64,000 nucleotides of DNA from Omnitrophica bacterium GWA2_41_15 (GTDB lineage: Bacteria > Omnitrophota > Gorgyraeia > Gygaellales > Profunditerraquicolaceae). Position numbers and translations under genes: made by a program. The stretch covers positions 64,192-128,191 of the forward strand of contig CAKKQB010000013.1 in NCBI GenBank assembly GCA_919901915.1, read 5' to 3'. Shown here piece after piece: positions 6,086-56,338 of the stretch (position 1 is its first letter; every line of letters begins with the position of its first letter). The notes below the pieces were generated by a model that was not told the origin of the DNA, did not search any database, and saw nothing but the letters and a program-made list of their open reading frames with translations.

Positions 6086-6122
6086 AAAAAAGATTTTTCC
6101 GTAAATAGGGACTGCCCGACTG

Positions 6123-6215
6123 GACCCCGGCTTCCGCCGGGGTGACGAGCTAACATTGTCATTCCCTCGGTCAGCCTCATTACCATCGTCGTCATTCCGG
6201 CGAAAGCCGGAATCC
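6123..6215. repeat. cluster of GC-rich capped hairpins (GACCCCGGCTTCCGCCGGGGTGAC and GTCATTCCGGCGAAAGCCGGAATCC)
   Basis: Hairpins at 6123-6146 and 6191-6215. The same two modules recur together at 56161-56218. Confidence 0.8.
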
Positions 6216-6298
6216 AGAAAGAAATCTTGTCCACCTCGTAGGCGCGCGCTTATCTTTACTCGTATTCACCTACCAGGTGGACTCTGGTTCCCTAAATG

Positions 6299-7991: not shown

Positions 7992-8024
7992 AGCAATATT
8001 AATTTAACACGAATTCTCATGGGG

Positions 8025-8197
8025 CTGTTGCGAAATGCCATTTTTCGTCATTCCGGCGAAAACCGGAATCCAGAACTCTTTGATTTTAATAGACTTATGG
8101 ATACCGGCGACCGAGGGCGAAATGACCGAGGAAGTGTCGGAGCCTAACTGGGCTCGACCTTTCGCCAATATGACGATTTTAATGTATTTTGCAACAG
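8025..8197. mobile_element. MITE-like element, copy 1 (173 bp, inverted ends CTGTTGCGAAAT...ATTTTGCAACAG)
   Basis: Near-identical to 51992-52164 along its full length. It has an internal GTCATTCCGGCGAAAACCGGAATCC hairpin. The + ORF 8035..8259 (MPFFVIPAKTGIQ...) is its translation. Confidence 0.75.
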
Positions 8198-8207
8198 CCC
8201 CCTCATG

Positions 8208-8255
8208 GATTTATCCGTGTTTATCCGTGTTCTTTTATCCGTGTCAATCCGTGTT
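8208..8255. repeat. B-type array: four TATCCGTGT motifs
   Basis: ggatttatccgtgtttatccgtgttcttttatccgtgtcaatccgtgtt lies directly 3' of the pilM-pilN stop. Same unit order as 14690-14736. Confidence 0.85.
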
Positions 8256-18916: not shown

Positions 18917-18922
18917 AATAAT

Positions 18923-19029
18923 TAGCGTAGAGCGTAGAGCGGATAGTAAAATTAGCATTTAGCGTAGAGCGTAGAGCGTTTAATAAAAGTCTTTTGCCTT
19001 TTCTCTACGCTCTACGCTATACGCTATCC
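18923..19029. repeat. A-type heptamer-array hairpin (AGCGKAK)n ... (MTMCGCT)n
   Basis: tagcgtagagcgtagagcggatag...agcgtagagcgtagagcg-loop-ctctacgctctacgctatacgctatcc. The right arm contains the carA stop. Confidence 0.85.
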
Positions 19030-20102
19030 TTCATCATCTCTATAAATTTCCCAAATAGGTATTTCGTATCATGCGGACCAGGAGATGCCTCGGGATGAAA
19101 CTGAACAGAAAAAACAGGCAATTTCTTATGCCGCATTCCTTCCAGGGTATCGTCATTTAAATTTATATGCGTAAGCTCTATATCTTTCTTATCCAAAGAA
19201 TCTATGTCCACGCAAAAACCGTGATTTTGCGCTGTTATACAAACTTTTCCTGTCTTTAAGTCCTTAACCGGATGATTCGCGCCATGGTGGCCGAATTTAA
19301 GTTTATAGGTTTTACCGCCAAAAGCAAGCCCTAACATCTGATGGCCAAGGCAGATTCCGAATATCGGCAATTTACCAATTAAGCCTCTTGTTGTTTCTAC
19401 AACATATTTTACTGCTGATGGATCTCCCGGGCCGTTAGAAAGCAAAACCCCGTCAGGTTTAAGCTCTAAAATATCCTCTGCTCTTGTTTCAGCCGGCACA
19501 ACTACTGCTTCGCAATTATGCTCAACGAGCTCTCTTAAAATATTATATTTTACCCCGCAATCAATCACTACAACCTTATATTTAGCTTTCTTTAAACTAG
19601 GCCAGATATATTTTTTGGCACAACTTACCTCTTTAACTAAGTCTATTCCCGTCAGTCCCAATGACTTTTTTACTTTTTCCACTAAACTCTTTTCATCCAA
19701 ATCTCGCGTAGATAAAACTGCCTTCATCGCGCCTTTTTCTCTGACATGCAAGGTTAGCGCTCTTGTATCTATCCCTTCAATACCCATGATATTATTTTCT
19801 TCTAAGTATTCTCCTAATGACTGCTCCTTGCGCCAATTACTGGCAATTTTACTATATTCTTTTACCGCGAATCCTTCCAGAAACAACCCTGCTGACTCTG
19901 TATCAAGCCTGTTTACGCCATAATTACCAATTAAAGGATACGTCATCGTAACAATCTGGCCTTTATAAGAAGGGTCTGTCAAGATCTCCTGATACCCTGC
20001 CATACTGGTATTAAAAACTATCTCGCCATAGCTTTCGCCAGAAGCGCCAAAAGATTTACCCCTAAATATCATTCCGTCTTCTAATACAAGAATTGCTTCC
20101 AT
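19017..20102 (-). CDS. carA: carbamoyl-phosphate synthase small (glutaminase) subunit
   Basis: 361 aa. CPSase_sm N-domain plus class I GATase triad (GICLGHQ, HPE). Confidence 0.95.
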   Translation of the reverse strand: MEAILVLEDGMIFRGKSFGASGESYGEIVFNTSMAGYQEILTDPSYKGQIVTMTYPLIGNYGVNRLDTESAGLFLEGFAVKEYSKIASNWRKEQSLGEYLEENNIMGIEGIDTRALTLHVREKGAMKAVLSTRDLDEKSLVEKVKKSLGLTGIDLVKEVSCAKKYIWPSLKKAKYKVVVIDCGVKYNILRELVEHNCEAVVVPAETRAEDILELKPDGVLLSNGPGDPSAVKYVVETTRGLIGKLPIFGICLGHQMLGLAFGGKTYKLKFGHHGANHPVKDLKTGKVCITAQNHGFCVDIDSLDKKDIELTHINLNDDTLEGMRHKKLPVFSVQFHPEASPGPHDTKYLFGKFIEMMKDSV

Positions 20103-20107
20103 ATTTT

Positions 20108-20137
20108 TAGCGTATAGCGGATAGCGTAGAGCGTATA
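20108..20137. repeat. A-type heptamer array, single arm
   Basis: tagcgtatagcggatagcgtagagcgtata; no complementary arm seen nearby. Confidence 0.75.
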
Positions 20138-20157
20138 ATAGTATAAATTATTATCTT

Positions 20158-21612: not shown

Positions 21613-21775
21613 GTGGCATTCAGGCTGTCTCGCAATCCTTATCGTGTCATTGCGAGGGCTGATTTATCAGCCCGTGGCAATCTTTTTACGACGAAGAATG
21701 TTAAAAAGATTGCTTCGCTTCGCTCGCTCTTGACACGCATTTTATTATTGTGATACAGTCTCAATGACACGAAAA
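21613..21775. mobile_element. MITE-like nested palindrome (ends CATTCAGGCTGT... / ...ACAGTCTCAATG; GTCATTGCGAG core)
   Basis: Imperfect inverted ends. The core gtcattgcgag...gcaatct...agattgcttcg is related to 23072-23177 and 29190-29262. A solo end is at 12397-12420. Confidence 0.6.
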
Positions 21776-21898: not shown

Positions 21899-22276
21899 TC
21901 AGGCAGTTTCGATAGCTCTTGTAGGCCGAGTAATATGAACTTTGTCTTTTTTTACAATTACCATGGCATTTTCAAAGGAAGCAAACATCTTTTTTTCTAC
22001 TAAGGGGTTCAAGATGTTAAGAAGGGCATCGGGAGCGAAAGGGTTAATTCTAAAAAATACAATTCCTTTATGGGTTCCTAAGGGGAATCTATAAAGACTG
22101 GTGAAATCATTATCTAAGGTAAGAATAATTCTATTTTCTTTTCTGCAAAACGAAACTATCTCTTCATCACTAGCCTTTTGCAATCCCACATCTAAGGCTT
22201 TAATAATATCGTAGCCATTCTTACGCAAGAGTTCTACGCCACAGCTAAAGAAACAATGGTCAGCAAATAACTTCAT
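21899..22276 (-). CDS. DUF5615 (PIN-like) putative toxin
   Basis: 125 aa. Has LFADHCF...ASDEEI...RIILTLDNDF, typical of DUF5615. Its start abuts the DUF433 stop. Confidence 0.7.
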   Translation of the reverse strand: MKLFADHCFFSCGVELLRKNGYDIIKALDVGLQKASDEEIVSFCRKENRIILTLDNDFTSLYRFPLGTHKGIVFFRINPFAPDALLNILNPLVEKKMFASFENAMVIVKKDKVHITRPTRAIETA

Positions 22277-22522
22277 TTAGTTAACCTCTTGGACAAAAAC
22301 TTCTTCGTTTTTAAAGATACAGGCAGCGTAATGAATGCAGGCTTTAATATCTTCGGGGGTAATATCAGGATAGCATTGTTTAATAATTTCCTCTATAGCC
22401 AGCCCTTGTTCAATAAGTTCCAGAACCATATAAACAGGAATTCTGGTTTCTTTAATACAGGGTTTTCCAAAGCAGATGTTGGGGTTAATAGAAATTCTAT
22501 CTTCCAGAGAATTATTTGCCAT
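22277..22522 (-). CDS. DUF433 putative antitoxin
   Basis: Start at ATG 22522 (MANNSLEDRISINPNICFGKPCIKETRIPV) with strong RBS GGAGGTGG. The track start at 22552 is an extension. Confidence 0.75.
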   Translation of the reverse strand: MANNSLEDRISINPNICFGKPCIKETRIPVYMVLELIEQGLAIEEIIKQCYPDITPEDIKACIHYAACIFKNEEVFVQEVN

Positions 22523-22613
22523 TGTTTCCACCTCCTGGCTGAAATATAACACGAACTTATATAAGCGTCAAGTTTTATCTCACAAAAATCAGGCCAGCCC
22601 ATATAAGTATAGA

Positions 22614-22847: not shown

Positions 22848-23213
22848 ATGATTAACAAAAATAACAACATAGAGACGCCCCAGTGGGGCGTCTCTACAAA
22901 ATTCTTATCTTTAATTCTCTGCTTCTCTCTCCTACTTCAGCAGACAGGCTTGGCTCAGGCTCTGCCTTCTCTTTCTCAGCCTCAACCTCAGCCTTTGCTC
23001 CGCTATCTCTCCGTCAACTCCGCCAATCCCAATAATTATTTTAATTTCCTGATGGATAAGGGTAGTAACGTGTCATTGCGAAGAGGAGCGCTTTTTAGCG
23101 ACGACGAAGCAATCTTTTTACGAAGTAACTCTTTAAAAGATTGCTTCACCCTCGCTAACGCTCGGGTTCGCAATGACACATTACTTTCCACAATAATTAC
23201 GAATGACTCCTAA
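22848..23213 (+). CDS. doubtful ORF / gene remnant; signal-peptide-like segment flanked by repeat-derived sequence
   Basis: 121 aa. Residues ETPQWGVST derive from hairpin 22869-22897. The C-terminal 45 aa derive from palindrome 23072-23177. Only plus-strand candidate; weak RBS. Confidence 0.2.
   Translation: MINKNNNIETPQWGVSTKFLSLILCFSLLLQQTGLAQALPSLSQPQPQPLLRYLSVNSANPNNYFNFLMDKGSNVSLRRGALFSDDEAIFLRSNSLKDCFTLANARVRNDTLLSTIITNDS
23072..23177. repeat. GTCATTGCGA...TCGCAATGAC nested palindrome (core III)
   Basis: gtcattgcgaagagg...gaagcaatct...agattgcttc...gggttcgcaatgac. Confidence 0.8.
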
Positions 23214-29156: not shown

Positions 29157-29427
29157 GTAATAGTTCAGCTCTCGGAAGTACCCGTCGGTGTCATTGCGAG
29201 CCCGAAGGGCGAAGCAATCTCTTTAAAAAGATTGCTTCGTCGCTATCGCTCCTCGCAATGAGACTGCGTCATAATTCGGTTTTGGTGTCATTCCGGCGAA
29301 AGCCGGAATCCATTCTCCGGCAATAACACAACTCACTGGATTCCGGCTTTCGCCGGAATGACGAATTTTTAACGATTATGACACAGTCTGAATGACACAA
29401 GTACTTCCAAGAGCTGAACTATTACCT
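29155..29427. mobile_element. composite nested palindromic element with about 21-bp inverted ends TAGTTCAGCTCTYGGAAGTAC
   Basis: Ends at 29161-29181 and 29400-29420 with 1 mismatch. Inside are core III (29190-29262) and an inverted pair of core I hairpins (29287-29311, 29338-29362). Confidence 0.65.
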
Positions 29428-31319: not shown

Positions 31320-31402
31320 GAAAAATAAACACGAATTACCACGAATTTTCACCCCACACCAATACATTAGTAACCCGCTTTGTCGTATCGAGCGCTCTTT
31401 TT

Positions 31403-31468
31403 GGGCGAGCAAGCTCGCCCCTACGAATCGTCGTATACATCGCGTAGGGGTGGGCTTGCCCACCCTAT
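31403..31468. repeat. pair of GC-rich hairpins (GGGCGAGCAAGCTCGCCCCTACGA; GTAGGGGTGGGCTTGCCCACCCTAT)
   Basis: The first is repeated at 33208-33231 with the same T-rich 5' flank. Confidence 0.8.
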
Positions 31469-31527
31469 GTTGATTATTAAATTCGTAACTATGTTCACAA
31501 TAAATACAAAACAACGAAAATTTGCTA

Positions 31528-37700: not shown

Positions 37701-39386
37701 TGGGTCAATTGCCGGATTAGTAACCTGCGCGAATAACTGTTTAAAATAACTATAAAGCAACTGCGGCTTATCAGATAAAACCGCATGCGGGGTATCATTA
37801 CCCATTGAGCCATTCGGTTCATGAGAATCTTCCACCATAGGTTTAATGATAAATTTAAAATCCTCGCGGGTGTAACCGAAAGCTTTGAATAGAGTTAACG
37901 GATCTACTTTATTAGCGGATAGCGGATAGCTTTTATTAGCGTAGAGCGTAGAGCGTAAAGCGTAGAGCGTTTTGCTTTTCCTATCCGCTATACGCTCTAC
38001 GCTATCCGCTGATAATTTATCCAACTCTAACATATTTTTTTTAAGCCATTCTCCATACGGCTTAGAGCTTGCCATTGTTTCTTTTATTTCCTTATCTTCA
38101 ATTATGCGGCCTTCTTCTGTATCAACAAAAAGCATCTTTCCCGGTTCAAGCCTTCCTGAGATAGAAATATCATCCGGCGCGATATCTAAAACCCCTGCCT
38201 CTGAAGCCATAACTACCAAATTCTTTTTGGTCACAATATAGCGGCTAGGCCTTAAACCATTTCTGTCTAAAACCGCGCCAATCCTTACGCCATCAGTAAA
38301 GGCAATGGCTGCCGGTCCATCCCAGGACTCAATAAGACAAGTGTGGTATTTATAAAAATCTCTTACATTTTGACTCAAAAGATTATTCTGCTCCCAAGCG
38401 CTGGGTATTAACATCATCATCGCGTGAGACAAAGATCTACCCGATAAAACTAAAAGTTCAAAAACATTATCAATAGCCGCGGAATCGCTTCCCCCGGGAA
38501 CAATCACCGGAAAAATTTCCTTTAAATCCTTACCAAATAATTTACTTTTTAGTAAACCTTGGCGGGCAGTCATCCAATTTATATTCCCTTTTAAGGTATT
38601 TATCTCTCCATTATGCGCCAAGAACCGAAAAGGCTGCGCCAGATCCCAAGTGGGAAAAGTATTGGTACTATAACGGGAATGCACTAAACAAATCGCGCTT
38701 TGAAGAGCGCTGTCTTTTAAATCCAAAAAGAATTTCTCCAACTGCTCAGGCATAAGCAGGCCTTTATAAGAAAGCGTGCGGCAAGAAAGATTAGTAATAT
38801 AAAAAAATGATTTTTGTTTTAAGAATAAAGAGCGGATTTCGTTTTCTATTTTCTTGCGGATAATATAAAGCCTGCGCTCAAAATCAAGGCCATCCTTACC
38901 TATACTTAGACCTTTACCTTTACCTATAAAAACCTGCTCAATCACCGGTTGAGTAAGCTTTGCGGTTTTGCCAATCGCGGAATTATCAACCGGGACAATC
39001 CGCCAACCAAGCAAGGCCTGGCCCTCTTCTTTAATAATTCTAGCAAAGATACCCTTACATAACGCGCGCTCTTTTTTGTTAGTGGGAAGAAATACCATGC
39101 CTATCCCATAATCGCCAGAGGACGGTAAAATAAAATTTTCCTTCGCGCAGGCTTTTGCCAAAAATTCATGTGGCGCCTGAATAAGTATGCCTGCGCCATC
39201 CCCGGTCTCTGGGTCGGCGCCAGTTGCCCCGCGATGAGAAAGACGGCCTAAAACCTCCATGCCCTGTTTAATAATTTCATAAGATTTTTTGCCTTTGACA
39301 TCGCAAACAAATCCTACGCCGCAGGAATCATGTTCAAAACGGGAATCATACAACCCGTATTTTTCTAATTTCTGACGATTATCCAT
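34743..39386 (-). CDS. gltB: glutamate synthase large subunit
   Basis: 1547 aa. Ntn Cys (DSCGVGF), central domain, FMN domain and GXGXG domain. Contains two repeat-derived inserts. Confidence 0.95.
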   Translation of the reverse strand: MDNRQKLEKYGLYDSRFEHDSCGVGFVCDVKGKKSYEIIKQGMEVLGRLSHRGATGADPETGDGAGILIQAPHEFLAKACAKENFILPSSGDYGIGMVFLPTNKKERALCKGIFARIIKEEGQALLGWRIVPVDNSAIGKTAKLTQPVIEQVFIGKGKGLSIGKDGLDFERRLYIIRKKIENEIRSLFLKQKSFFYITNLSCRTLSYKGLLMPEQLEKFFLDLKDSALQSAICLVHSRYSTNTFPTWDLAQPFRFLAHNGEINTLKGNINWMTARQGLLKSKLFGKDLKEIFPVIVPGGSDSAAIDNVFELLVLSGRSLSHAMMMLIPSAWEQNNLLSQNVRDFYKYHTCLIESWDGPAAIAFTDGVRIGAVLDRNGLRPSRYIVTKKNLVVMASEAGVLDIAPDDISISGRLEPGKMLFVDTEEGRIIEDKEIKETMASSKPYGEWLKKNMLELDKLSADSVERIADRKSKTLYALRSTLYANKSYPLSANKVDPLTLFKAFGYTREDFKFIIKPMVEDSHEPNGSMGNDTPHAVLSDKPQLLYSYFKQLFAQVTNPAIDPIREELVMSLDTYLGPQKNILDEQPRHCHKLLVKNPILTNEDLKKIHDIKKNGFKTKTISLLFNISEKNNFKKALDRICKETEAAIKEGFTFVILSDQGINKDKACLSALLATACVHQDLVRKALRTQVSIIVQSASPREVHHFALLFGYGADCINPYLAYEAAAFLIRDKEVDLDLESAIKHYIKAVDKGILKILSRMGISTLQSYRGAQIFEALGLSSEVIDKYFTGTVSRIGGIDLGIIEKEALLRHKEAFAVDGLQRPFLATGGLYQWKKDGEFHLWNPDSIAALQGAVRNNDSKKYQEFAKLINDQSSNPATLRSLFKFKEVKPIPIEEVEPVSEIVRRFVTGAMSFGSISKACHETIAIAMNRLGGRSNTGEGGEDPARFVAFPNGDSKRSAIKQVASGRFGVITNYLVNADELQIKIAQGAKPGEGGQLPGHKVSAAIAKIRYTTPGVTLISPPPHHDIYSIEDLAQLIFDLKNVNPRARVSVKLVSEIGVGTIATGVAKGHADMILISGGDGGTGASPLSSIKHAGLPWELGIAETHQTLVLNDLRSRVRLQVDGGMRTGRDVAVAALLGAEEFGFCTSVLVVLGCVMLRHCHLNNCSLGVATQDELLEKRFSGKPEYVENYFRFIAQELRQIMSSLGIVKIDDLIGRADLLEVNSKILPWKAKKIDFSRILYQPKGNGRASHSPSRKPEGSGLAPYKQDYGIDNILDRKLIELARGALENRKPIKIELSIRNHNRSVGTMLSGEVCRIFGEDGLPANTIHFKFKGVAGQSFGAWLAKGVTLELEGLTNDYVGKGMSGGKIIIYPDRQSNYKVEENIIIGNTTFYGAILGSAYIRGIAGERFCIRNSGLYAVVEGVGDHACEYMTGGRVVVIGRTGRNFAAGMSGGIAYVWDKDGDFKNKCNMEMVILEAVAEEDARTIEKLLSNHYHYTRSSSAKNILDNFTPELKKFVKVMPIEYKRVLGGRKTEEKIELVEASDG
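35597..35658. repeat. E-type palindromic element inside gltB (in frame, linker between FMN and C-terminal domains)
   Basis: ccaaaccactgccctctggcttgcggctcgggctatgggaagcccgaccattgccctttggc encodes QPKGNGRASHSPSRKPEGSGL. Confidence 0.7.
37911..38010. repeat. A-type heptamer-array hairpin inside gltB (in frame)
   Basis: attagcggatagcggatagc...tagcgtagagcgtagagcgtaaagcgtagagcg-loop-ctatccgctatacgctctacgctatccgct encodes SADSVERIADRKSKTLYALRSTLYANKSYPLSAN. Confidence 0.85.
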
Positions 39387-39389
39387 ATT

Positions 39390-39558
39390 TTTAGCGTATA
39401 GCGTATAGCGTAGAGCGTAGAGCGTATAGCGTATAGCGTAGAACGTAGAGCGTAGAGCGGATAGCGGATAGTAAAAATCTATGTTTTAACTATATGTTAT
39501 CCGCTATTCCTACACGCTTTCTTTCCTATCCGCTAAACGCTATACGCTCTACGCTAAT
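39390..39558. repeat. A-type heptamer-array hairpin, largest copy (left arm about 11 units)
   Basis: tagcgtatagcgtatagcgtagagcgtagagcgtatagcgtatagcgtagaacgtagagcgtagagcggatagcggatag, then a loop, then a degenerate complementary arm. Confidence 0.85.
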
Positions 39559-39589
39559 ATAAAATACCTCATAGACCTACGAGGCATAT

Positions 39590-44635: not shown

Positions 44636-44659
44636 CCTCTTATTTTTAATGTTTTAGTA

Positions 44660-44732
44660 TTTAGCGGATAGCGTATAGCGTATATATAGGTTTTACTATC
44701 CGCTATACGCTCTACGCTATACGCTATACGCT
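44660..44732. repeat. A-type heptamer-array hairpin
   Basis: tttagcggatagcgtatagcgtata-loop-tatccgctatacgctctacgctatacgctatacgct. The right arm contains the nfnA stop. Confidence 0.85.
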
Positions 44733-45569
44733 TGATATTTTAAGATTACAGATATGCTTTTCTTTATCTAAATAAACACTGTTCCTCTTTGTCAATTCAT
44801 CCCAATTTACTTGAGTTCCGTCAAATTCCGGGCCATCAACGCAAGCAAATTTCGTCTTACCTGCCACAGTTACACGGCAACAGCCGCACATTCCAGTAGC
44901 ATCTACCATCAAAGGATTCAAAGAAACAATGGTTTTAACTTTAAAATCGCTAGCAACCTCGCAAACTCTTCTCATCATCGGTATCGGGCCGACTGCGTAA
45001 ATTAGCGAATAGCGGATAGCGGATAGTGAATAGCTTAATACCTCCTGCAAAATATCAGTAACAAAGCCTTTCCTGCCGCAAGAACCGTCATCAGTGGTTA
45101 TATAAAGCTCATCGCAAAACACCTTTAGCTCCTGCTCCAAAATCAATAAATCATTGTTTCTTGCGCCCAGTATAGTAGTAGTATGGTTTCCCGCTTCTTT
45201 CAAAGCCTTGGCAACCGGATAAATCTCCGCAATTCCTACGCCTCCGCCTACAAGAATTAAATTTCCAAAATTTTTAATCTCAGTAGCATGCCCCAGGGGC
45301 CCGGCCAAAGCGTATAATGAATCACCAACCTCCATCTTGCCCAGCAACTTAGTAGTTAAGCCAACCTCTTGAAAGATCAAGGTAATTGTGCCTATGTCAG
45401 AATTTTTATCTACTATAGTTAGAGGTATCCTTTCGCCTTCCTCGCATACCATAAGAACAACAAATTGGCCCGGTCTTACTTTCCTGGCAATAAGCGGGCT
45501 TAAGATTTCAAAGCGCTTAATTGTTACGTCTTGCGTTTGTGCTAAAATTTCTTTTTTGATTATCCGCAT
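44724..45569 (-). CDS. nfnA: NfnA/SudB-like FAD/NAD-binding ferredoxin-reductase-type subunit (PyrK family)
   Basis: 281 aa. Has RPGQFV, GGGVGIA and a C-terminal 2Fe-2S Cys cluster (GMCGCCRV...CVDGPEF). Confidence 0.75.
   Translation of the reverse strand: MRIIKKEILAQTQDVTIKRFEILSPLIARKVRPGQFVVLMVCEEGERIPLTIVDKNSDIGTITLIFQEVGLTTKLLGKMEVGDSLYALAGPLGHATEIKNFGNLILVGGGVGIAEIYPVAKALKEAGNHTTTILGARNNDLLILEQELKVFCDELYITTDDGSCGRKGFVTDILQEVLSYSLSAIRYSLIYAVGPIPMMRRVCEVASDFKVKTIVSLNPLMVDATGMCGCCRVTVAGKTKFACVDGPEFDGTQVNWDELTKRNSVYLDKEKHICNLKISSV
45001..45035. repeat. A-type heptamer array (single arm) inside nfnA, in frame
   Basis: agcgaatagcggatagcggatagtgaatagc encodes SYSLSAIRYSLIY. Confidence 0.7.
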
Positions 45570-45607: not shown

Positions 45608-45728
45608 GGGACTGTTGTGAAATACCAAACCTTGCGTCATTCTGAGGCCGAAAGCCGAAGAATCTCGACGCTGATAAGATCCTTCGCTTCGCTCAGGATG
45701 ACGAAAAAGGGTATTTCGCAACGGTCCC
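45608..45728. mobile_element. MITE-like element, short variant (ends GGGACTGTTGTGAAATACC / GGTATTTCGCAACGGTCCC)
   Basis: Same end family as 8025-8197 and 51992-52164, but with core II inside (gtcattctgaggccgaaagccgaagaatc...gctcaggatgac). Confidence 0.75.
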
Positions 45729-46484: not shown

Positions 46485-47642
46485 TTAACGATTCCTCTTC
46501 AAAAAACTTTCTATTCTACTTAACGCCTCTTTCAAATTATCAAAACTTGCGGCATAGGATATGCGAATATTGTCCGCGAACTGAGCGCCAAAAGCTGTGC
46601 CCGGAATAACCGCGACCTTTTCCTCCTTTAAAAGCTGTTGGCAAAAATCCATCGCCTTAAGACCGCTGCTTTTTATGCTGGGAAAAGCATAGAAAGCACC
46701 CTGCGGCTTTGAACACTCAAGGCCGATGCGATTCAGCTCACTAACCACAAACTCTCTTCTTCGTTTATATTCACGCTTCATCTCTTCCACTGATTTTCTG
46801 CCTGAATGCATCGCTTCAGAAGCAGCTATTTGAGAAGTAATAGACACGCACATAATGGTATACTGATGAATCTTAGTCATAGCCGCGATAATCTCTTTTG
46901 GGCCGCAAGCAAAGCCCACACGCCAGCCAGTCATCGCGTAACTTTTGGAAAAACCATCAAGATAAACAGTCGAATTTTTTGCTTGAGGCAATGTCGCGAA
47001 AGGCGTATGAGTAAAATCATACGTCAAATCTCCATAAACCTCATCGCTGATACAAAGCAGATTATACTTCAACGCGATCTTCTTAATTTCCTCTAATTCT
47101 TTTTTAGTATAAGATACGCCCGTAGGATTAGTAGGGTAGTTCAATATAATTGCTTTAGCTTTCTTGTCTATGCTCTTCTCCAAGCTTTCCGGTGTAAGCT
47201 TAAAATTGTTTTTACTTGTATCGATATAAACAGGTATACCGCCGGCTAATTCACTAACCGGGCCGTAAGAAACATAACATGGCTCGGGTATAATTATTTT
47301 ATCACCCGGATTTATAATGGAACGCAAAACTAAATCCAAAGCCTCGCTTACCCCAACAGTAATCAAAATCTCTTCATCCGGACAATAATCCAAACCGTAT
47401 TTATTTTTTAGGTATTGTGAAATGGTCAGCCTTAATTTATACAAGCCCTTATTTGAGGTGTAAGAGGTAAAACCCTCTTCTAATGAAGCTATCCCTGCTT
47501 CGCGTATCTGCCAAGGCGTAACAAAATCCGGCTCACCCACGCCAAGGGAAATTACATCCTTCATGCCTAATACTAAATCAAAAAACGCGCGAATTCCGGA
47601 GGGATGCATTTGCTTAACTTTTTCGGAAACCAAATCTTTCAT
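46485..47642 (-). CDS. class I/II PLP-dependent aminotransferase (AspC-like)
   Basis: 385 aa. Has NPTG and the PLP lysine motif SKSYAMTGWRVG. Confidence 0.9.
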   Translation of the reverse strand: MKDLVSEKVKQMHPSGIRAFFDLVLGMKDVISLGVGEPDFVTPWQIREAGIASLEEGFTSYTSNKGLYKLRLTISQYLKNKYGLDYCPDEEILITVGVSEALDLVLRSIINPGDKIIIPEPCYVSYGPVSELAGGIPVYIDTSKNNFKLTPESLEKSIDKKAKAIILNYPTNPTGVSYTKKELEEIKKIALKYNLLCISDEVYGDLTYDFTHTPFATLPQAKNSTVYLDGFSKSYAMTGWRVGFACGPKEIIAAMTKIHQYTIMCVSITSQIAASEAMHSGRKSVEEMKREYKRRREFVVSELNRIGLECSKPQGAFYAFPSIKSSGLKAMDFCQQLLKEEKVAVIPGTAFGAQFADNIRISYAASFDNLKEALSRIESFLKRNR

Positions 47643-47649
47643 CGTTTTC

Positions 47650-47716
47650 AGCGTTTAGCGGATAGCGTTTAGCGTATAGTTTTTTTTATCCGCTATACGC
47701 TCTACGCTATACGCTA
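47650..47716. repeat. A-type heptamer-array hairpin
   Basis: cagcgtttagcggatagcgtttagcgtatag-ttttttt-tatccgctatacgctctacgctatacgcta. Confidence 0.85.
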
Positions 47717-48202
47717 TTAATACGATATAGCTATCCTCTTATTCTCTTCCCTGTGCTTCAAAATCACTCCATCTTCCTTATATTTTTTTAATAAAAAGTG
47801 CGTGACTATGCCGCGGATATTCTCGAGGCAAGAAAGTTTCTCCGCTACAAATTGTGAAACTTTTTGTAAATTCTTGCCCTCAACTATAACCAAAAGGTCA
47901 TACGTGCCGGAAATCAAGCAACAGTCAGTTACCTCCGGAAACGAATAAATACGCTCAGCAATTTTATCAAAACCAATATCCTTTTGCGGAGCAATATTAA
48001 CCTCTATCAAAGCCCTGACGGAAGGCTCTTCGGTTTTAATTAAATCCTTATTTATTACTGTTTTATATTTTAAAATTATCCCCTCTTTTTCATACTTTTT
48101 TATCGCCTCTTTTATTGCCTCCGGCTTTTTCTTTAACATTTTCGCGATCTCTTCCGGAGTTACAAGCGCGTTCTTTTCTAATATCTCTAATATTTCGTCC
48201 AT
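47717..48202 (-). CDS. Lrp/AsnC family transcriptional regulator
   Basis: 161 aa. An HTH, then a RAM/AsnC_trans_reg domain. Confidence 0.85.
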   Translation of the reverse strand: MDEILEILEKNALVTPEEIAKMLKKKPEAIKEAIKKYEKEGIILKYKTVINKDLIKTEEPSVRALIEVNIAPQKDIGFDKIAERIYSFPEVTDCCLISGTYDLLVIVEGKNLQKVSQFVAEKLSCLENIRGIVTHFLLKKYKEDGVILKHREENKRIAISY

Positions 48203-49815: not shown

Positions 49816-49832
49816 TTATCAAAAACCACCCT

Positions 49833-49903
49833 GTCATTCTGAGGCCCTGAAGGGGCCGAAGAATCTCGACGCTAATAAGATCCTTCGCTTCGCTCAGGAT
49901 GAC
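49833..49903. repeat. core II capped hairpin without MITE ends, overlapping the mnmG 3' end
   Basis: gtcattctgaggccctgaaggggccgaagaatctcgacgctaataagatccttcgcttcgctcaggatgac; compare 45636-45702. Confidence 0.8.
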
Positions 49904-51773
49904 AAAAATGAGATATTTTCTTCAAATACACCATTAAAATAGAAATGGCCGCGGGCGTTACTCCGGAAATTCGCGAAGCCTGGCCCAGATTTAATGGCCT
50001 AAACTTACTTAGCTTTTCTTTAACCTCTCTCGAAAGGCTATTGATAGCAGTATAATCCAACCCCTCCGGAAGCCTGATTTTTTCTAAATTTTTAAATCTC
50101 TCCACATCCTTTAATTGCCTCCGGATAAATCCCGCGTATTTTACCTCAATTTCAATCTGACGTAAAGCTAATTCCGGAAAATTATTGAAAAAATCCTCCT
50201 GGCACAAGTTTTTTAATTTCTCGATGTCAATCTGCGGCCTTTTTAAGAGCTCCTCAAGAGTTACGGATTTCTTTAAAGGAGAACTACTATATTGGGTCAG
50301 CTTATCATTGACCTCCCGCGTTGGCTTAAGACGCGTATTTCTTATACAATTAAAACCTTCGGTTATCGCGTCTTTTTTCCTTTGTAATTTTTCATAATCC
50401 TTGCTATTTACCAATCCTAAATCATACCCTATTTTTCCAAGGCGTAAATCCGCGTTATCTTCGCGCAAGATCAAGCGATATTCCACGCGCGAAGTAAACA
50501 TCCGGTATGGCTCAAGAGTTCCCTTAATAGTTAAATCATCTATCAATACGCCAATATAGCTGGTCGCGCGATCCAAAATCAATGCCTCCTTAGATTTTAC
50601 TCTTAAGGCCGCGTTTATTCCCGCGATTAAACCCTGGGCTGCTGCTTCCTCATAACCGGTAGTGCCATTAATTTGTCCGGCAAAATATAAATTCTTAATC
50701 AATTTTGTTTCTAAAGAAAGCTTTAGCTGGGTAGGCTCTGCCACAGTATGCTCTATTCCATAACCAAAACGAATAATTTTAGCATTCTCTAATCCTTCAA
50801 TTGAATGTATTAAGTCCGATTGCGCGTCTTCAGGCAAACTTGTGGACAGGCCATTCGGATACACCTCATCCGTAGACAAACCTTCTAGCTCCAGAAACAC
50901 CTGGTGCCTTTCTTTATCAGAAAATTTAACAATTTTGTCTTCAACTGACGGACAATAGCGGACTCCCGTTGCCTTGATAAGGCCGGTATAGAGCGGAGAA
51001 CGGCATAAATTATCAAGAATAATTTTATGAGTTCTTTTATTTGTATAGGTTATATGGCAGGGAACTTGTTTTTGTATTAACTTTTCACTTGAAAAAGAAA
51101 ACGCTCGCGCCGGATTATCCCCTTCCTGAACTATAAGCTTAGAAAAATCTATTGTATTCTTATCTAAGCGGCTGCAGGTCCCGGTTTTAAATCTAAGCAA
51201 ATAGAAACCTAACTCCTTTAGGTTATTTGTCAGGCCTATCGCCGCTGGCTCATTGATGCGCCCCGCGCTAAAAGACTTAAGGCCAACATAGATTAAGCCA
51301 TCTAAAAACGTGCCCGGACAGATAACCACGGTTTTGGATAAAATCTCCTCGTCCTTACTCGTAACCACCCCCATCACTATATTATCAGAAACTACCAATC
51401 TTTTTACCTCCGCCTCTTTGATAAAAAGATTTTCCTGTTTCTCCAATATTTCCTTCATATACTGGCTGTATATTTCCATATCCACCTGCGCGCGGGATGA
51501 TTGCACAGCCGGCCCCTTAGAGGCATTAAGAATTCTAAACTGAATTCCGCTAAAATCAGCGGCCTTCGCCATTTGCCCGCCCAAGGCATCAATCTCTTTT
51601 ACAAGCTGGCCCTTGCCTACTCCGCCAATCGCCGGATTACAGCTCATCAAGCCTATTGTTTTCACGCTCAAAGTAATAATAAGCGTCTTGCAGCCCATCC
51701 GCGCTGAAGCCAACCCTGCCTCAATTCCAGCATGGCCGGCGCCAATAATTATAACGTCGTAATTTTGAGTCAT
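49872..51773 (-). CDS. mnmG: tRNA uridine-5-carboxymethylaminomethyl modification enzyme MnmG (GidA)
   Basis: 633 aa, YDVIIIGAGHAGIEA. The tail CHPERSEGSY is encoded by repeat 49833-49903. Confidence 0.95.
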   Translation of the reverse strand: MTQNYDVIIIGAGHAGIEAGLASARMGCKTLIITLSVKTIGLMSCNPAIGGVGKGQLVKEIDALGGQMAKAADFSGIQFRILNASKGPAVQSSRAQVDMEIYSQYMKEILEKQENLFIKEAEVKRLVVSDNIVMGVVTSKDEEILSKTVVICPGTFLDGLIYVGLKSFSAGRINEPAAIGLTNNLKELGFYLLRFKTGTCSRLDKNTIDFSKLIVQEGDNPARAFSFSSEKLIQKQVPCHITYTNKRTHKIILDNLCRSPLYTGLIKATGVRYCPSVEDKIVKFSDKERHQVFLELEGLSTDEVYPNGLSTSLPEDAQSDLIHSIEGLENAKIIRFGYGIEHTVAEPTQLKLSLETKLIKNLYFAGQINGTTGYEEAAAQGLIAGINAALRVKSKEALILDRATSYIGVLIDDLTIKGTLEPYRMFTSRVEYRLILREDNADLRLGKIGYDLGLVNSKDYEKLQRKKDAITEGFNCIRNTRLKPTREVNDKLTQYSSSPLKKSVTLEELLKRPQIDIEKLKNLCQEDFFNNFPELALRQIEIEVKYAGFIRRQLKDVERFKNLEKIRLPEGLDYTAINSLSREVKEKLSKFRPLNLGQASRISGVTPAAISILMVYLKKISHFCHPERSEGSY

Positions 51774-51987: not shown

Positions 51988-51991
51988 GAGT

Positions 51992-52164
51992 CTGTTGCGA
52001 AATGCCATTTTTCGTCATTCCGGCGAAAGCCGGAATCCAGAACTCTTTGATTTCAATAGGCTTATGGATACCGGCGACCGAGGGCGAAATGCCCGAGGAA
52101 GTGTCAGAGCCCAACTGGGCTCGACCTTTCGCCGGTATGACGGTTTTAATGTATTTCGCAACAG
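51992..52164. mobile_element. MITE-like element, copy 2 (173 bp)
   Basis: Collinear with 8025-8197, differing by a few substitutions. It starts 4 nt after the 51824-51987 element. Confidence 0.75.
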
Positions 52165-52280
52165 TCCCTCGTTATCTGACAACCATCATTTTTTATCACA
52201 TTATTTACGAAAGAACCATAATTTTCCATATAAATTAAAAAAAATGCTATAATTTAGATTCTTTCGTATTTAAAATAATC

Positions 52281-52310
52281 CGTAGGGGCGGTTCGTGAAC
52301 CGCCCTTACG
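52281..52310. repeat. GC-rich hairpin CGTAGGGGCGGTTCGTGAACCGCCCTTACG
   Basis: Related copy at 59738-59761 (GTAGGGGCGGTTCGCGAACCGCCC). Confidence 0.8.
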
Positions 52311-52353: not shown

Positions 52354-53637
52354 TTATTCTCTCGCGCTTTTCACGAGGAGAGGCATGATATCCCGGCCAA
52401 GAAGCTCGCCAAGCGAACCAAGCGATGCCGCTTTTTCAGAAAAACTTAAAGAACCGTCGGGCTTAATGTTTCCACCCGAGATAAGCAAAGGAACGGGGTC
52501 AGAGGAATGGGCTTTTATGACGCAAACAGTAGAATGATCCGCGGTTACAGCAATAATCGTATTGTTTATATCTATTTTTGGCAAAAAGCTTGAAAAAAAA
52601 TACTTATCTATCGCTTCAATAATGTCTTTCTTTTTATTAAAATCTCCGTCGTGCGCTGGCTCATCAGGGCCTTTGATATGCACATAAATACCATCATATT
52701 TCTTCATTGATTCCAAAGCCACCTTAGCCCAAACAGGATAATCCACATCTAAATGCCCGCTTGCATCAGGAACATCAATTATATCCATACCTGTTAATAA
52801 GGCAATCCCTTTTTCTACAGGCATCTGCACAAATGAACCAAACTTTACATCGTAAAAACTCTGAATAGGGGGAAATTTAGGGATGTGGTCCCCCGCGTCA
52901 CGCGATAAAATCACATTGCCGGGCATCTTATTTTCAGAAATCCTCTTTTTATTAACTAAGGAATCATTTAAAACTTTATGGGATTTCTGGGTAAATTCAT
53001 TTAAAAGCGCGGCCGCCTCCTTTGACTCGGGTGAATTCTCGTATCCGGGCATAGGAATTGACTCAACCACAAAATTCTCAAATTTCTCCTTGGCAACACC
53101 AAACACACCCTCCCTGTCATACGCGGGATCAGTATTAGTAATCCATCCGGATAATCTAGAGCGAACCCCTCTTATCACCAAAATTCCGCGATGCCCAATA
53201 GTACTTTTAAATTCAAAAGTCGCGCTTGAAAGCGTAACCTTTGAATTAATTTCTTTTGATAAAGCGACAGCCTCTTCAGTGGTAAGATTTCTTCCCACGC
53301 GCCTATCCTTAATTGTCAAGCCATCTGGCGCCACTGTGGCAAAATTAACCCGGAAAGCCACATCACCATCATTTACAACCAACCCTTCCGCGAAAGATTC
53401 TAAGGGCCCTCTGCCTGTATAATATTTGTGCGCGTCATAGCCTAAAAGACTGATTACCGCGATATCCGACTCCGGAGCAATTCCCTTAGCAACAGGATAA
53501 ACAATACCGGTTCTGCCTTTTTGAGCAAGACGATCAAGATTAGGCGTTAAAGCCGCCTCTAAAGGAGTTTTATTACCTAATTCCTTAACCGGTAAATCAC
53601 CTAAACCATCGAGAACTATATAAATAATTTTTTTCAT
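52354..53637 (-). CDS. apgM: cofactor-independent phosphoglycerate mutase, archaeal-type
   Basis: 427 aa, alkaline-phosphatase-superfamily pattern (ILDGLGD...ADHS). Confidence 0.85.
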   Translation of the reverse strand: MKKIIYIVLDGLGDLPVKELGNKTPLEAALTPNLDRLAQKGRTGIVYPVAKGIAPESDIAVISLLGYDAHKYYTGRGPLESFAEGLVVNDGDVAFRVNFATVAPDGLTIKDRRVGRNLTTEEAVALSKEINSKVTLSSATFEFKSTIGHRGILVIRGVRSRLSGWITNTDPAYDREGVFGVAKEKFENFVVESIPMPGYENSPESKEAAALLNEFTQKSHKVLNDSLVNKKRISENKMPGNVILSRDAGDHIPKFPPIQSFYDVKFGSFVQMPVEKGIALLTGMDIIDVPDASGHLDVDYPVWAKVALESMKKYDGIYVHIKGPDEPAHDGDFNKKKDIIEAIDKYFFSSFLPKIDINNTIIAVTADHSTVCVIKAHSSDPVPLLISGGNIKPDGSLSFSEKAASLGSLGELLGRDIMPLLVKSARE

Positions 53638-53642
53638 ATTTT

Positions 53643-53700
53643 ATTAGCGCGGATAGCGTTTAATTTTTTCTATACGCTATACGCTCTACGCTATACGCTA
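53643..53700. repeat. A-type heptamer-array hairpin
   Basis: ttagcgcggatagcgttta-atttttt-ctatacgctatacgctctacgctatacgcta. Confidence 0.85.
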
Positions 53701-53710
53701 AAACTTTTAT

Positions 53711-56068: not shown

Positions 56069-56160
56069 TTTTTTTCTCCCTATCGTATTACATTTGACAC
56101 TATCATATTACACGTATTGTCAAAAGTATTTAGTTAATTCTTTTATATCTGCTGGCTCTT

Positions 56161-56218
56161 GTCATTCCGGCGAAAGCCGGAATCCAGTCTTCTGGACCCC
56201 GGCTTTCGCCGGGGTGAC
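56161..56218. repeat. core I hairpin + GACCCCGGCTTTCGCCGGGGTGAC hairpin in the nrdJ leader
   Basis: Same module pair as 6123-6215. Confidence 0.8.
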
Positions 56219-56238
56219 ATCTTAAATTTTCTATAATA

Positions 56239-56274: not shown

Positions 56275-56320
56275 ACACAATCTATAGTATTATATTAAAT
56301 TAAGTATACAATATGCTGTA
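56275..56320. promoter_or_regulatory. candidate tandem NrdR boxes
   Basis: 56275-56290 read on the minus strand gives ATACTATAGATTGTGT, matching 14 of 16 positions of the remembered consensus acaCwAtATaTwGtgt. 56305-56320 (atacaatatgctgtat) matches 12 of 16. Centres are 30 bp apart. Confidence 0.4.
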
Positions 56321-56338
56321 TTTTACCTCGAGTGGGGT

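What the first reader, a model, noticed from the sequence alone, without database searches (positions are those of the whole stretch)
56161..56218. GTCATT...AATGAC/GTGAC-capped GC hairpins occur in three sequence flavours and as fixed module pairs
Three flavours of capped hairpin occur.
- Core I, GTCATTCCGGCGAAAGCCGGAATCC: 6191, 8047, 29287, 29338 (inverted), 52014, 56161.
- Core II, GTCATTCTGAGGCC...CTCAGGATGAC: 45636, 49833.
- Core III, GTCATTGCGAG...CTCGCAATGAC: 21646, 23072, 29190.

All share the GTCATT / ATGAC caps but have different GC-rich stems. Compensatory change of both arms under a constant cap suggests that structure, not sequence, is maintained.

The pair core I + GACCCCGGCTTYCGCCGGGGTGAC occurs twice, at 6123-6215 and 56161-56218. 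Both are in 5' leaders, of the kinase gene and of nrdJ.
Basis: partly seen in the sequence, partly recalled or inferred. Interest (0 to 1): 0.5.

Follow-up and report, generated by a model that had tools for sequence, protein, structure and literature searches.

The report
Known CGTC-tagged hairpin repeats (NTS/SRM)
The GC-rich hairpins are copies of a known, very widespread family of small bacterial DNA repeats (Neisseria dRS3/NTS, "CGTC-tagged REPs"), which in other bacteria are cut as single-stranded DNA by small Ssn nucleases; here they are insertions in an Omnitrophota genome, not conserved gene leaders.

Summary
The repeats are real and far above chance. Core I (CGTCATTCCGGCGAAAGCCGGAATCCAG) differs from the published Neisseria NTS only by one compensatory stem pair. 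It matches the published Ssn-related-motif (SRM) pattern 7 times in the window (0.09 expected). The second module, GACCCC..GGGGTGAC, is the same unit inverted, with ATT/AAT changed to ACC/GGT.

A cross-phylum scan gave 147 units; 135 have all five free stem positions complementary, so the hairpin covaries strongly. In metagenome contigs the identical unit flanks small GIY-YIG (ssn-like) genes on both sides.

Orthologous loci in two related Omnitrophota keep the nrdJ promoter but lack the hairpin pair. It is therefore an insertion in the 5' UTR, not a conserved leader.

Four copies sit in composites with terminal inverted repeats and 5- or 8-bp target duplications.

Cores II and III keep the YGTCAT head and ATC tail, but the stem is interrupted by G·A pairs around a mini-hairpin. 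They miss the SRM pattern, are abundant in IMG/VR, have no partner gene that I could find, and appear in no searchable paper.

No ssn or transposase gene lies in the 64 kb window or in the roughly 10 kb of flanks I could fetch.

Verdict: a new member of a known kind. The RAYT idea and the leader idea are not supported.

The parts
56160..56187 (+). Type I unit (ATT stem): TGTCATTCCGGCGAAAGCCGGAATCCAG. It is the left half of the dimer in the nrdJ 5' UTR.
   Evidence: Exact core I match. Matches the published SRM pattern.
56192..56219 (-). Type I unit (ACC stem variant): TGTCACCCCGGCGAAAGCCGGGGTCCAG. It is the right half of the dimer, with tags outward and a 4-nt spacer TCTT.
   Evidence: As ssDNA the dimer folds at -29.6 to -30 kcal/mol, z = -9.2 to -9.7. 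It is absent from the orthologous leaders in L002 and L003.
6120..6147 (-). Type I unit, ACC stem, GGAA loop: CGTCACCCCGGCGGAAGCCGGGGTCCAG. It lies between the response-regulator gene and the histidine-kinase gene.
6190..6217 (+). Type I unit (ATT stem). Its tag faces the 6120-6147 unit across a 42-nt spacer that holds a degenerate GTCATTCCCTCGGTC motif.
8021..8201 (.). 181-bp composite resembling a MITE (miniature transposon). Terminal inverted repeat GGGGCTGTTGCGAAAT..; type I unit at 8046-8073; degenerate inverted partner at 8148-8175; 5-bp direct repeat CTCAT on both sides.
   Evidence: 93% identical to 51988-52168. Inverted-repeat search: 9 matches against 0.65 expected. Target duplication checked. 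Fold z = -7.3.
51988..52168 (.). Second copy of the 181-bp composite. Type I unit at 52013-52040; 5-bp direct repeat TCGTT on both sides. It lies in the apgM-gidA spacer.
   Evidence: The spacer is 580 nt here and 147 nt in L002 and L003, which lack the element.
45608..45728 (.). 121-bp composite with the same terminal inverted repeat family but a type II dimer inside (units 45636-45664 on the plus strand and 45678-45702 on the minus strand). 5-bp direct repeat TTGAT on both sides.
   Evidence: Fold z = -5.9.
49833..49903 (.). Bare type II dimer with no outer inverted repeat and no duplication. Units at 49833-49865 (plus strand) and 49879-49903 (minus strand). The minus-strand unit supplies the last 10 codons (CHPERSEGSY) and the stop codon of gidA.
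29157..29425 (.). 269-bp composite. 25-bp terminal inverted repeat GTAATAGTTCAGCTCTYGGAAGTAC, flanked by CTTTTTTT on both sides, inserted in the T-run of the terminator after the MarR gene. It contains a type III dimer (29190-29264) and a type I homodimer (29286-29313 plus strand, 29336-29363 minus strand).
23072..23177 (.). Type III dimer. Units at 23072-23114 (plus strand) and 23139-23177 (minus strand): GTCATTGCGA-[variable hairpin]-GAAGCAATC.
   Evidence: ssDNA fold -38.3 kcal/mol, z = -10.
21646..21736 (.). Type III unit at 21646-21682 (plus strand) with a degenerate inverted partner at 21708-21736. The pair is flanked by inverted CATTSAGRCTGT.TC.CAAT motifs at about 21617 and 21770.

Best explanation
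**What the hairpins are.** They belong to the CGTC-tagged REP superfamily. This family is also known as Neisseria dRS3 and NTS, and as 'Ssn-related motifs' (SRM).

Each unit is an oriented element:
- an unpaired 5' tag YGTC;
- an 8-bp stem starting A-T-T (or A-C-C) with a 4-nt loop;
- an unpaired 3' C(CAG).

**Known function.** In the characterised species the tagged strand, as a single-stranded DNA hairpin, is bound by a roughly 95-aa single-domain GIY-YIG nuclease, Ssn, and cut a few nucleotides upstream. In Neisseria this restricts incoming transforming DNA that carries the motif. The published determinants are the three bases before the palindrome, the stem and the C after it. The loop is dispensable.

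**What is shown here.**
- Family identity of type I.
- Covariation of the stem.
- The unit-ssn-unit architecture in other organisms, with exactly this unit.
- That the window copies are insertions. Two inverted units with a short spacer have the same architecture as unit-ssn-unit without the gene.
- That some copies sit inside composites with terminal inverted repeats and 5- or 8-bp target duplications.

**What is inferred.**
- That this Omnitrophota genome encodes a cognate Ssn.
- That types II and III (same head and tail, with the distal stem replaced by G·A pairs plus a GNA/GNRA mini-hairpin) are served by the same nuclease or a related one.
- That any effect on nrdJ or kinase mRNA is a by-product of insertion.
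For: **Sequence match to the known family.**
- The published NTS is CGTCATTCCCGCGMAVGCGGGAATCYRG (PMC11893778). Core I differs only by one C-G to G-C stem swap.
- The published SRM pattern matches 7 window units, against 0.09 expected.
- The CGTC-1 definition in PMC3733652 also fits: tag CGTC or TGTC, 8-bp stem with A-T at the first two positions, 4-nt loop, CCA tail, mostly inverted dimers, heterodimers in some species.

**Distribution and covariation.**
- 135 of 147 units are fully complementary at the free positions.
- The covariation score is 0.434 against 0.127 for shuffles.
- The ATT/ACC heterodimer seen at 56160-56219 recurs in L030, L050, L112, L014, L028 and L082.

**Link to ssn genes.**
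- Of 82 ssn-like GIY-YIG genes in metagenome contigs, 40 have type I units within 150 nt on both sides, tags outward, and 28 have a unit on one side.
- The exact window unit flanks ssn in L137, L139, L141, L145, L159, L175 and L193.

**Insertion status.**
- The nrdJ promoter is conserved in L002 and L003 but the dimer is absent.
- The 181-bp composite is absent from their apgM-gidA spacer.
- Target duplications CTCAT, TCGTT, TTGAT and CTTTTTTT flank the four composites.

**Other support.**
- The elements form strong ssDNA hairpins.
- All nine sites are intergenic or at the extreme 3' end of a gene.
- Ssn tolerates removal or extension of the loop; cleavage depends on the three bases upstream and binding on the C after the palindrome.
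Against: - No GIY-YIG gene lies in the window, in about 7.6 kb beyond its left end or in about 2 kb beyond its right end. An Ssn in this genome is therefore unproven.
- The ssn homologs flanked by the identical unit that I could name are from Syntrophales, not Omnitrophota.
- Types II and III do not match the SRM pattern. I found no ssn-like or other recurrent gene flanked by them in 2.16 Mb of IMG/VR loci.
- How these repeats spread is unknown even in Neisseria.
- The composites with inverted repeats and target duplications point to a different, DDE-type mobilisation for some copies.
Confidence: 0.8

Rival explanations
1. The hairpins are REP/REPIN elements mobilised by a RAYT (an IS200/IS605-type Y1 transposase).
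For: The anatomy is similar: a tagged hairpin, inverted dimers that fold into one long hairpin, and no target duplication around the bare dimers. GTAG-tagged palindromes also occur in the window, at 31402-31470 and 52282-52309, so the genome may well carry a RAYT.
Against: The tag here is CGTC or TGTC, not GTAG. The survey of CGTC repeats found none flanking a RAYT or any other transposase gene. The gene that is flanked by this unit is a GIY-YIG nuclease. No Y1 transposase lies in the window or its flanks.
Confidence: 0.05
2. The hairpins are cis-regulatory RNA structures in the 5' leaders of nrdJ and the kinase gene, acting as attenuators, stabilisers or riboswitch-like elements, and they are maintained for that role.
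For: The nrdJ dimer lies downstream of the best promoter match: TTGACA-17-TATACT, 11 of 12, minus strand 56267-56239. It would therefore be transcribed. A Wolbachia sRNA model built on such a dimer gives a sub-threshold match: WsnRNA46, 38.8 bits against a gathering score of 65.3.
Against: The dimer is absent from the orthologous nrdJ leaders, where the promoter and the palindromic boxes are conserved. The same sequence occurs in unrelated contexts and in more than 12 phyla. There is no terminator-like T tract. No Rfam family reaches its threshold. SsnA does not act on RNA.
Confidence: 0.05
3. The hairpins are only internal parts of ordinary MITEs moved by a DDE transposase, and the hairpin has no function of its own.
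For: Four composites have terminal inverted repeats and 5- or 8-bp direct duplications.
Against: The same outer inverted repeat carries either a type I or a type II interior. Bare dimers without any outer repeat or duplication also exist, at 56160-56219 and 49833-49903. The unit is conserved across phyla while the outer shells are not. A similar palindromic shell around CGTC-1 dimers was reported in Halothiobacillus as a possible target.
Confidence: 0.1

Closest known systems
NTS / Ssn-related motifs with SsnA GIY-YIG ssDNA nucleases (Chenal et al. 2025, Nat Commun 16:2388, PMC11893778)
   Same: Type I has almost the same sequence: 26 of 28 bases match the NTS consensus, and the two differences form a compensatory pair. 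It shares the oriented flanks, hairpin, intergenic location and wide phyletic spread. The identical unit flanks ssn-like genes in metagenome contigs.
   Different: No ssn gene was seen in the sequence available for this genome, and no biochemistry was done. Types II and III fall outside the published SRM pattern.
Neisseria dRS3 repeats and NIME arrays (Parkhill 2000; Bentley 2007, PMC1797815)
   Same: The 20-bp core ATTCC(C/G)-N8-(G/C)GGAAT is shared. Both are intergenic and interleaved with other repeat families, giving mosaic composites.
   Different: The stem is ATTCCG/CGGAAT rather than ATTCCC/GGGAAT. There are no long arrays here. The organism is an Omnitrophota, and no filamentous-phage or IS110 link was seen.
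CGTC-tagged REPs, families CGTC-1 to CGTC-4, including Rickettsia RPE-4 and RPE-6 (Di Nocera et al. 2013, PMC3733652)
   Same: Shared features are the CGTC or TGTC tag, an 8-bp stem beginning A-T, a 4-nt loop, a CCA tail, inverted dimers including heterodimers, occasional copies at gene ends, and palindromic shells around dimers.
   Different: That survey covered five phyla and did not include Omnitrophota. Types II and III have interrupted stems and a CTY tail, features not described in the text available to me.
GTAG REP / REPIN elements with RAYT transposases
   Same: Both are tagged hairpins, occur as inverted doublets that fold into one long hairpin, and are intergenic.
   Different: The tag and the partner protein differ. 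No RAYT association is known for CGTC repeats.
Rfam RF02625, WsnRNA46 (Wolbachia sRNA 46)
   Same: The model consensus is itself an inverted pair of GTCAT..GATCCAG units. It aligns end to end with 56142-56237.
   Different: The score is 38.8 bits against a gathering score of 65.3, so this is not a member. The inner stem and the spacer differ.

Membership tests
NTS/SRM (Ssn-related motif) | Sequence fits the published SRM search pattern HGTCWYN(0-2)YYVSBRHN(0-5)WNVSBRGN(0-2)RNCYNB. | tested here: met
   Seven type I units match, against 0.09 expected in Markov-1 random sequence. The 6120-6147 unit with a GGAA loop just misses.
NTS/SRM (Ssn-related motif) | The same pattern, applied to cores II and III. 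| tested here: not met
   None of the type II or III units appears among the SRM matches. They keep the YGTCAT head, the ATT stem base and the C after the stem.
NTS/SRM (Ssn-related motif) | Strict NTS consensus CGTCATTCCCGCGMAVGCGGGAATCYRG with at most 1 mismatch, the criterion used in the paper. | tested here: not met
   The window units differ at two positions (CCCGC to CCGGC and GCGGG to GCCGG). They are therefore SRM, not strict NTS.
NTS/SRM (Ssn-related motif) | Forms a hairpin as single-stranded DNA, with stem covariation. | tested here: met
   DNA folds have z from -9 to -10. 94.9% of cells are paired, all five free pairs change on both sides, and 0 of 500 shuffles reach the score.
NTS/SRM (Ssn-related motif) | The units flank a small single-domain GIY-YIG (cd10448) gene. 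| tested here: inconclusive
   This holds in other organisms: 40 of 82 genes are flanked on both sides, including by the identical unit. No such gene lies in the roughly 74 kb available from this genome.
NTS/SRM (Ssn-related motif) | Strand-specific binding and cleavage by Ssn on ssDNA. | not testable with these tools
   This needs purified protein and oligonucleotides.
CGTC-tagged REP (CGTC-1) | Unpaired CGTC or TGTC tag; 8-bp stem with A-T at positions 1-2; 4-nt loop; CCA tail. | tested here: met
   All eight type I units fit, except that in the ACC variant position 2 is C-G.
CGTC-tagged REP (CGTC-1) | Mostly inverted dimers; rarely inside genes. | tested here: met
   Six of the eight type I units are in pairs. 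All sites are intergenic.
GTAG REP / RAYT | GTAG tag at one end of the palindrome. | tested here: not met
   The tag is CGTC or TGTC in every unit.
GTAG REP / RAYT | A Y1 (IS200-like) transposase gene flanked by the repeats. | tested here: inconclusive
   None lies in the window or its flanks. The rest of the genome was not available.
MITE (composites only) | Terminal inverted repeats plus a direct target-site duplication, with no coding capacity. | tested here: met
   Three composites have 5-bp duplications and one has an 8-bp duplication. They contain only spurious ORFs. No autonomous partner was found.

The most novel reading that the evidence does not exclude
Cores II and III (consensus across metagenomes GTCATTGCGAG-CGNAGC-GAAGCAATC and GTCATYCTGAG-CGNAGC-GAAGRATC) are uncharacterised sister families of the NTS/SRM repeat.

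They keep the nuclease-critical YGTC head, the ATT stem base and the 3' C. The distal stem is replaced by G·A pairs around a GNA or GNRA mini-hairpin. They are very abundant, including on contigs classed as viral.

They would be the targets of a distinct ssDNA nuclease that has not yet been identified, or of an Ssn clade with a different specificity.

A lesser point: some units spread as cargo of composites with inverted repeats and target duplications.
Probability: 0.3. Interest if true: 0.5.

Novelty: new member of a known kind. Interest (0 to 1): 0.3.

Why it matters
- It extends the NTS/SRM (Ssn target) repeat to Omnitrophota.
- It shows by orthologous comparison that copies are recent insertions, one in the 5' UTR of nrdJ and one rewriting the C-terminus of GidA.
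- It warns annotators that peptides such as WIPAFAGMT, SFRRKPESR and CHPERSEGS are translated repeats, not proteins.
- The only part that may be new is that two further hairpin flavours with the same head and tail are equally widespread but lie outside the published motif and have no known partner protein.

Tried and rejected
**Searches that found nothing.**
- An ssn/GIY-YIG gene in the window. Neither the small-ORF list, Pfam scans, nor a tblastn with recalled consensus sequences found one. Nor did about 7.6 kb beyond the left end (L124) or about 2 kb beyond the right end (L001). The look-up for the right-end protein failed.
- A partner gene for types II and III in 233 IMG/VR loci (2.16 Mb). 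A tblastn with ssn proteins gave one frameshifted hit that is not flanked by units. ORFs lying between inverted units were ordinary phage genes. A GIY-YIG regex found only that same hit.
- Inverted repeats beyond the units that flank ssn genes. Identity there is at random level.
- The autonomous element for the GGGGCTGTTGCGAAAT ends. Among all fetched loci these ends occur only on this contig. The two IMG/VR matches are chance hits inside coding sequence.
- Naming an Omnitrophota ssn by homology search. The named hits are from Syntrophales.

**Ideas considered and dropped.**
- Rfam at gathering threshold finds only the tRNA.
- A hammerhead-like reading of CUGAG..GAAG was dropped because there is no stem I.
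- A CRISPR-repeat reading was dropped because the copies are inverted pairs, not arrays.
- An intrinsic-terminator reading was dropped because there is no T tract.

Full report
**Observation**

The window is about 40% G+C, and nearly all genes are on the minus strand.

Core I (GTCATTCCGGCGAAAGCCGGAATCC) occurs at the six stated positions, with none expected by chance. GACCCCGGCTTYCGCCGGGGTGAC occurs at 6123 and 56195. Read on the other strand, that module is GTCAccCCGGCGAAAGCCGGggTCCAG. It is therefore core I with ATT/AAT replaced by ACC/GGT, a compensatory double change.

A scan anchored on GTCA plus a 5-bp outer stem lists the units in the window:
- eight type I units (tail CCAG);
- four type II units (ATTCT or ATCCT stems, interior GAG..GA);
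- four good type III units (ATTGC stem), plus two degenerate partners.

All units are preceded by C or T, giving a CGTC or TGTC tag.

Most units are in inverted pairs. As single-stranded DNA these pairs fold into one long hairpin, with z from -6 to -10; the bare 49825-49910 dimer is weaker, at z = -3.1.

The two 'module pairs' are not equivalent:
- 56160-56219 has tags outward and a 4-nt spacer;
- 6120-6217 has tags inward and a 42-nt spacer.

**Source and context**

The nrdJ product is found exactly on a 95-kb metagenome contig (ENA ERZ1292638, NODE_67) and in an NCBI record. Its close homologs are named Candidatus Omnitrophota.

All nine repeat-bearing sites lie between genes or at the extreme 3' end of a gene. 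The type II unit at 49879-49903 supplies the last ten codons (CHPERSEGSY) and the stop codon of gidA. Relatives end differently at this point.

**Insertions, not conserved leaders**

Two related contigs keep the gene order lacI-nrdJ-apgM-gidA: L002 (nrdJ 84% identical at protein level) and L003 (GCA_041643295.1, 82%).

In the lacI-nrdJ spacer all three share two 16-bp palindromes and a TTGACA-17-TATACT promoter. That promoter is the best promoter match in the region. The 58-nt hairpin pair, together with surrounding window-only sequence (about 98 nt in the alignment), is present only in the window, starting about 20 nt after the -10 box.

The apgM-gidA spacer is 147 nt in the relatives and 580 nt in the window, where it holds a 181-bp repeat element.

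No terminator-like T tract follows the hairpins.

**Composite elements**

The copies at 8021-8201 and 51988-52168 are 93% identical over 181 bp. They end in inverted GGGRCTGTTGCGAAAT.. sequences. The same ends enclose a type II dimer at 45608-45728.

Each of the three is flanked by an exact 5-bp direct repeat: CTCAT, TCGTT and TTGAT. A fourth composite, 29157-29425, has a different 25-bp inverted repeat. It holds both a type III and a type I dimer and is flanked by CTTTTTTT inside a terminator T-run.

These composites therefore behave like MITEs. The bare dimers show no duplication.

**Distribution and covariation**

Matches came from Proteobacteria, Chloroflexota, Bacteroidota, Patescibacteria, Nitrospirae, Planctomycetes, Hydrogenedentota, Acidobacteria and others.
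- Of 147 units, 135 have all five free positions complementary, with more than a dozen stem variants.
- On the 34 distinct sequences, 94.9% of cells pair and all five free pairs change on both sides.
- The covariation score is 0.434, against 0.127 for shuffles (0 of 500 reach it) and 0.04-0.13 for slid controls.
- The ATT/ACC heterodimer of 56160-56219 recurs in several phyla.

**Identification**

A literature string search led to Neisseria. The 20-bp core is the dRS3 repeat, ATTCCC-N8-GGGAAT, of neisserial intergenic mosaic elements (PMC1797815).

Di Nocera et al. classed it as CGTC-1 in a superfamily of CGTC-tagged REPs with these features (PMC3733652):
- an 8-9-bp stem starting A-T;
- a 4-5-nt loop;
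- a CCA tail;
- mostly inverted dimers;
- no associated transposase.

Chenal et al. defined the 28-nt NTS, CGTCATTCCCGCGMAVGCGGGAATCYRG, and the broader SRM pattern. They showed the following (PMC11893778):
- SsnA, a 94-aa GIY-YIG protein (cd10448), binds and cuts the tagged strand only as ssDNA.
- Cleavage depends on the three bases upstream of the palindrome, and binding on the C after it.
- The loop is dispensable.
- ssn genes are typically flanked by the motif.

Their SRM pattern matches seven window units, against 0.09 expected.

I reproduced the association independently. Two GIY-YIG ORFs found next to units in the genome loci served as query for a metagenome scan. Of 82 ssn-like genes, 40 have units on both sides within 150 nt with tags outward, and 28 have a unit on one side. 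The exact window unit flanks the gene in at least seven loci.

The window dimers thus have the unit-ssn-unit architecture with the gene missing.

Rfam's nearest family is WsnRNA46, a Wolbachia sRNA whose model is itself such a dimer. The match is sub-threshold.

**Cores II and III**

They do not fit the SRM pattern, but they retain the head, the stem base and the 3' C.

- The commonest interiors are CGAAGC, CGCAGC, CGTAGC and CGGAGC. This gives ..GAG-CGNAGC-GAAG.., which reads as a GC-GNA-GC mini-hairpin between G·A mismatches.
- The free stem pair of type II is T-A or C-G in 166 of 174 units.
- Most copies are close inverted dimers.
- Similar units co-occur with type I in other phyla.

I found no flanked partner gene and no paper containing these strings.

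Because Ssn tolerates changes distal to the stem base, the same enzyme family is a reasonable candidate. That is an inference, not a result.

**Limits**

No ssn or transposase gene lies in the roughly 74 kb available from this genome. The named relatives of the ssn genes flanked by the identical unit are from Syntrophales. The mechanism by which units multiply is unknown.

**Verdict**

The finding is a real repeat family. Its type I members are already described and mechanistically linked to Ssn nucleases, and this is a new host lineage for them. The structural reading is right. The RAYT and leader readings are not supported. Types II and III are the only possibly new element.

Noticed in passing
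window 18913-19049, 20098-20140, 37903-38027, 39382-39560, 44641-44754, 47639-47732, 53634-53709: Tandem 7-nt arrays (AGCGTAK or AGCGGAT)n face inverted arrays (MTACGCT)n a few tens of nt away, right at gene boundaries, in at least seven intergenic regions. This is a separate and abundant repeat family that I did not explain.
   Followed up: no
window 8207-8254, 13984-14031, 14687-14758, 15175-15222: Short TATCCGTGT-type direct repeats recur in four intergenic regions. One lies directly beside the 8021-8201 composite.
   Followed up: no
window 14714-15013 and 15178-15477: A perfect 300-nt direct repeat, 464 nt apart, spans two adjacent genes that carry the N-terminal methylation (pilin-like) motif. 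This may be a recent tandem duplication or an assembly effect.
   Followed up: no
window 31402-31470 and 52282-52309: GTAG-tagged palindromes (GTAGGGGTGGGCTTGCCCACCC with an inverted partner, and GTAGGGGCGGTTCGTGAACCGCCCTTAC) are present. The classical REP type therefore coexists with the CGTC type in this genome.
   Followed up: partly
window 56275-56290 and 56306-56321 (minus strand, upstream of nrdJ): Two 16-bp palindromes (ATACAGCATATTGTAT and ATACTATAGATTGTGT) lie 31 bp apart, just upstream of the -35 box. They are conserved in L002 and L003. From my own knowledge they look like NrdR boxes. If so, nrdJ is controlled by a repressor rather than by a B12 riboswitch.
   Followed up: partly
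window 49872-49903: The last ten codons of gidA (CHPERSEGSY) and its stop codon come from a type II repeat unit. Relatives have unrelated C-terminal ends.
   Followed up: yes
L002 5450-5585 and L003 13600-13737: In the apgM-gidA spacer the related Omnitrophota carry a different palindromic element, AGGGACGTCTTTA...TAAAGACGTCCCT. The same spacer has therefore been colonised independently by different repeats.
   Followed up: no
proteins P0121-P0240 (ssn homologs): The ssn-like genes lie mostly on very short contigs (0.5-5 kb), with many near-identical clusters. This is what multicopy, repeat-flanked genes that break assemblies would look like.
   Followed up: no
window 22277-22552 / 21899-22276, and 14123-14455 / 14440-14634: Two small toxin-antitoxin-like gene pairs (DUF433 with DUF5615/PIN-like, and PemK/MazF with DUF2281) lie next to repeat-rich spacers.
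   Followed up: no
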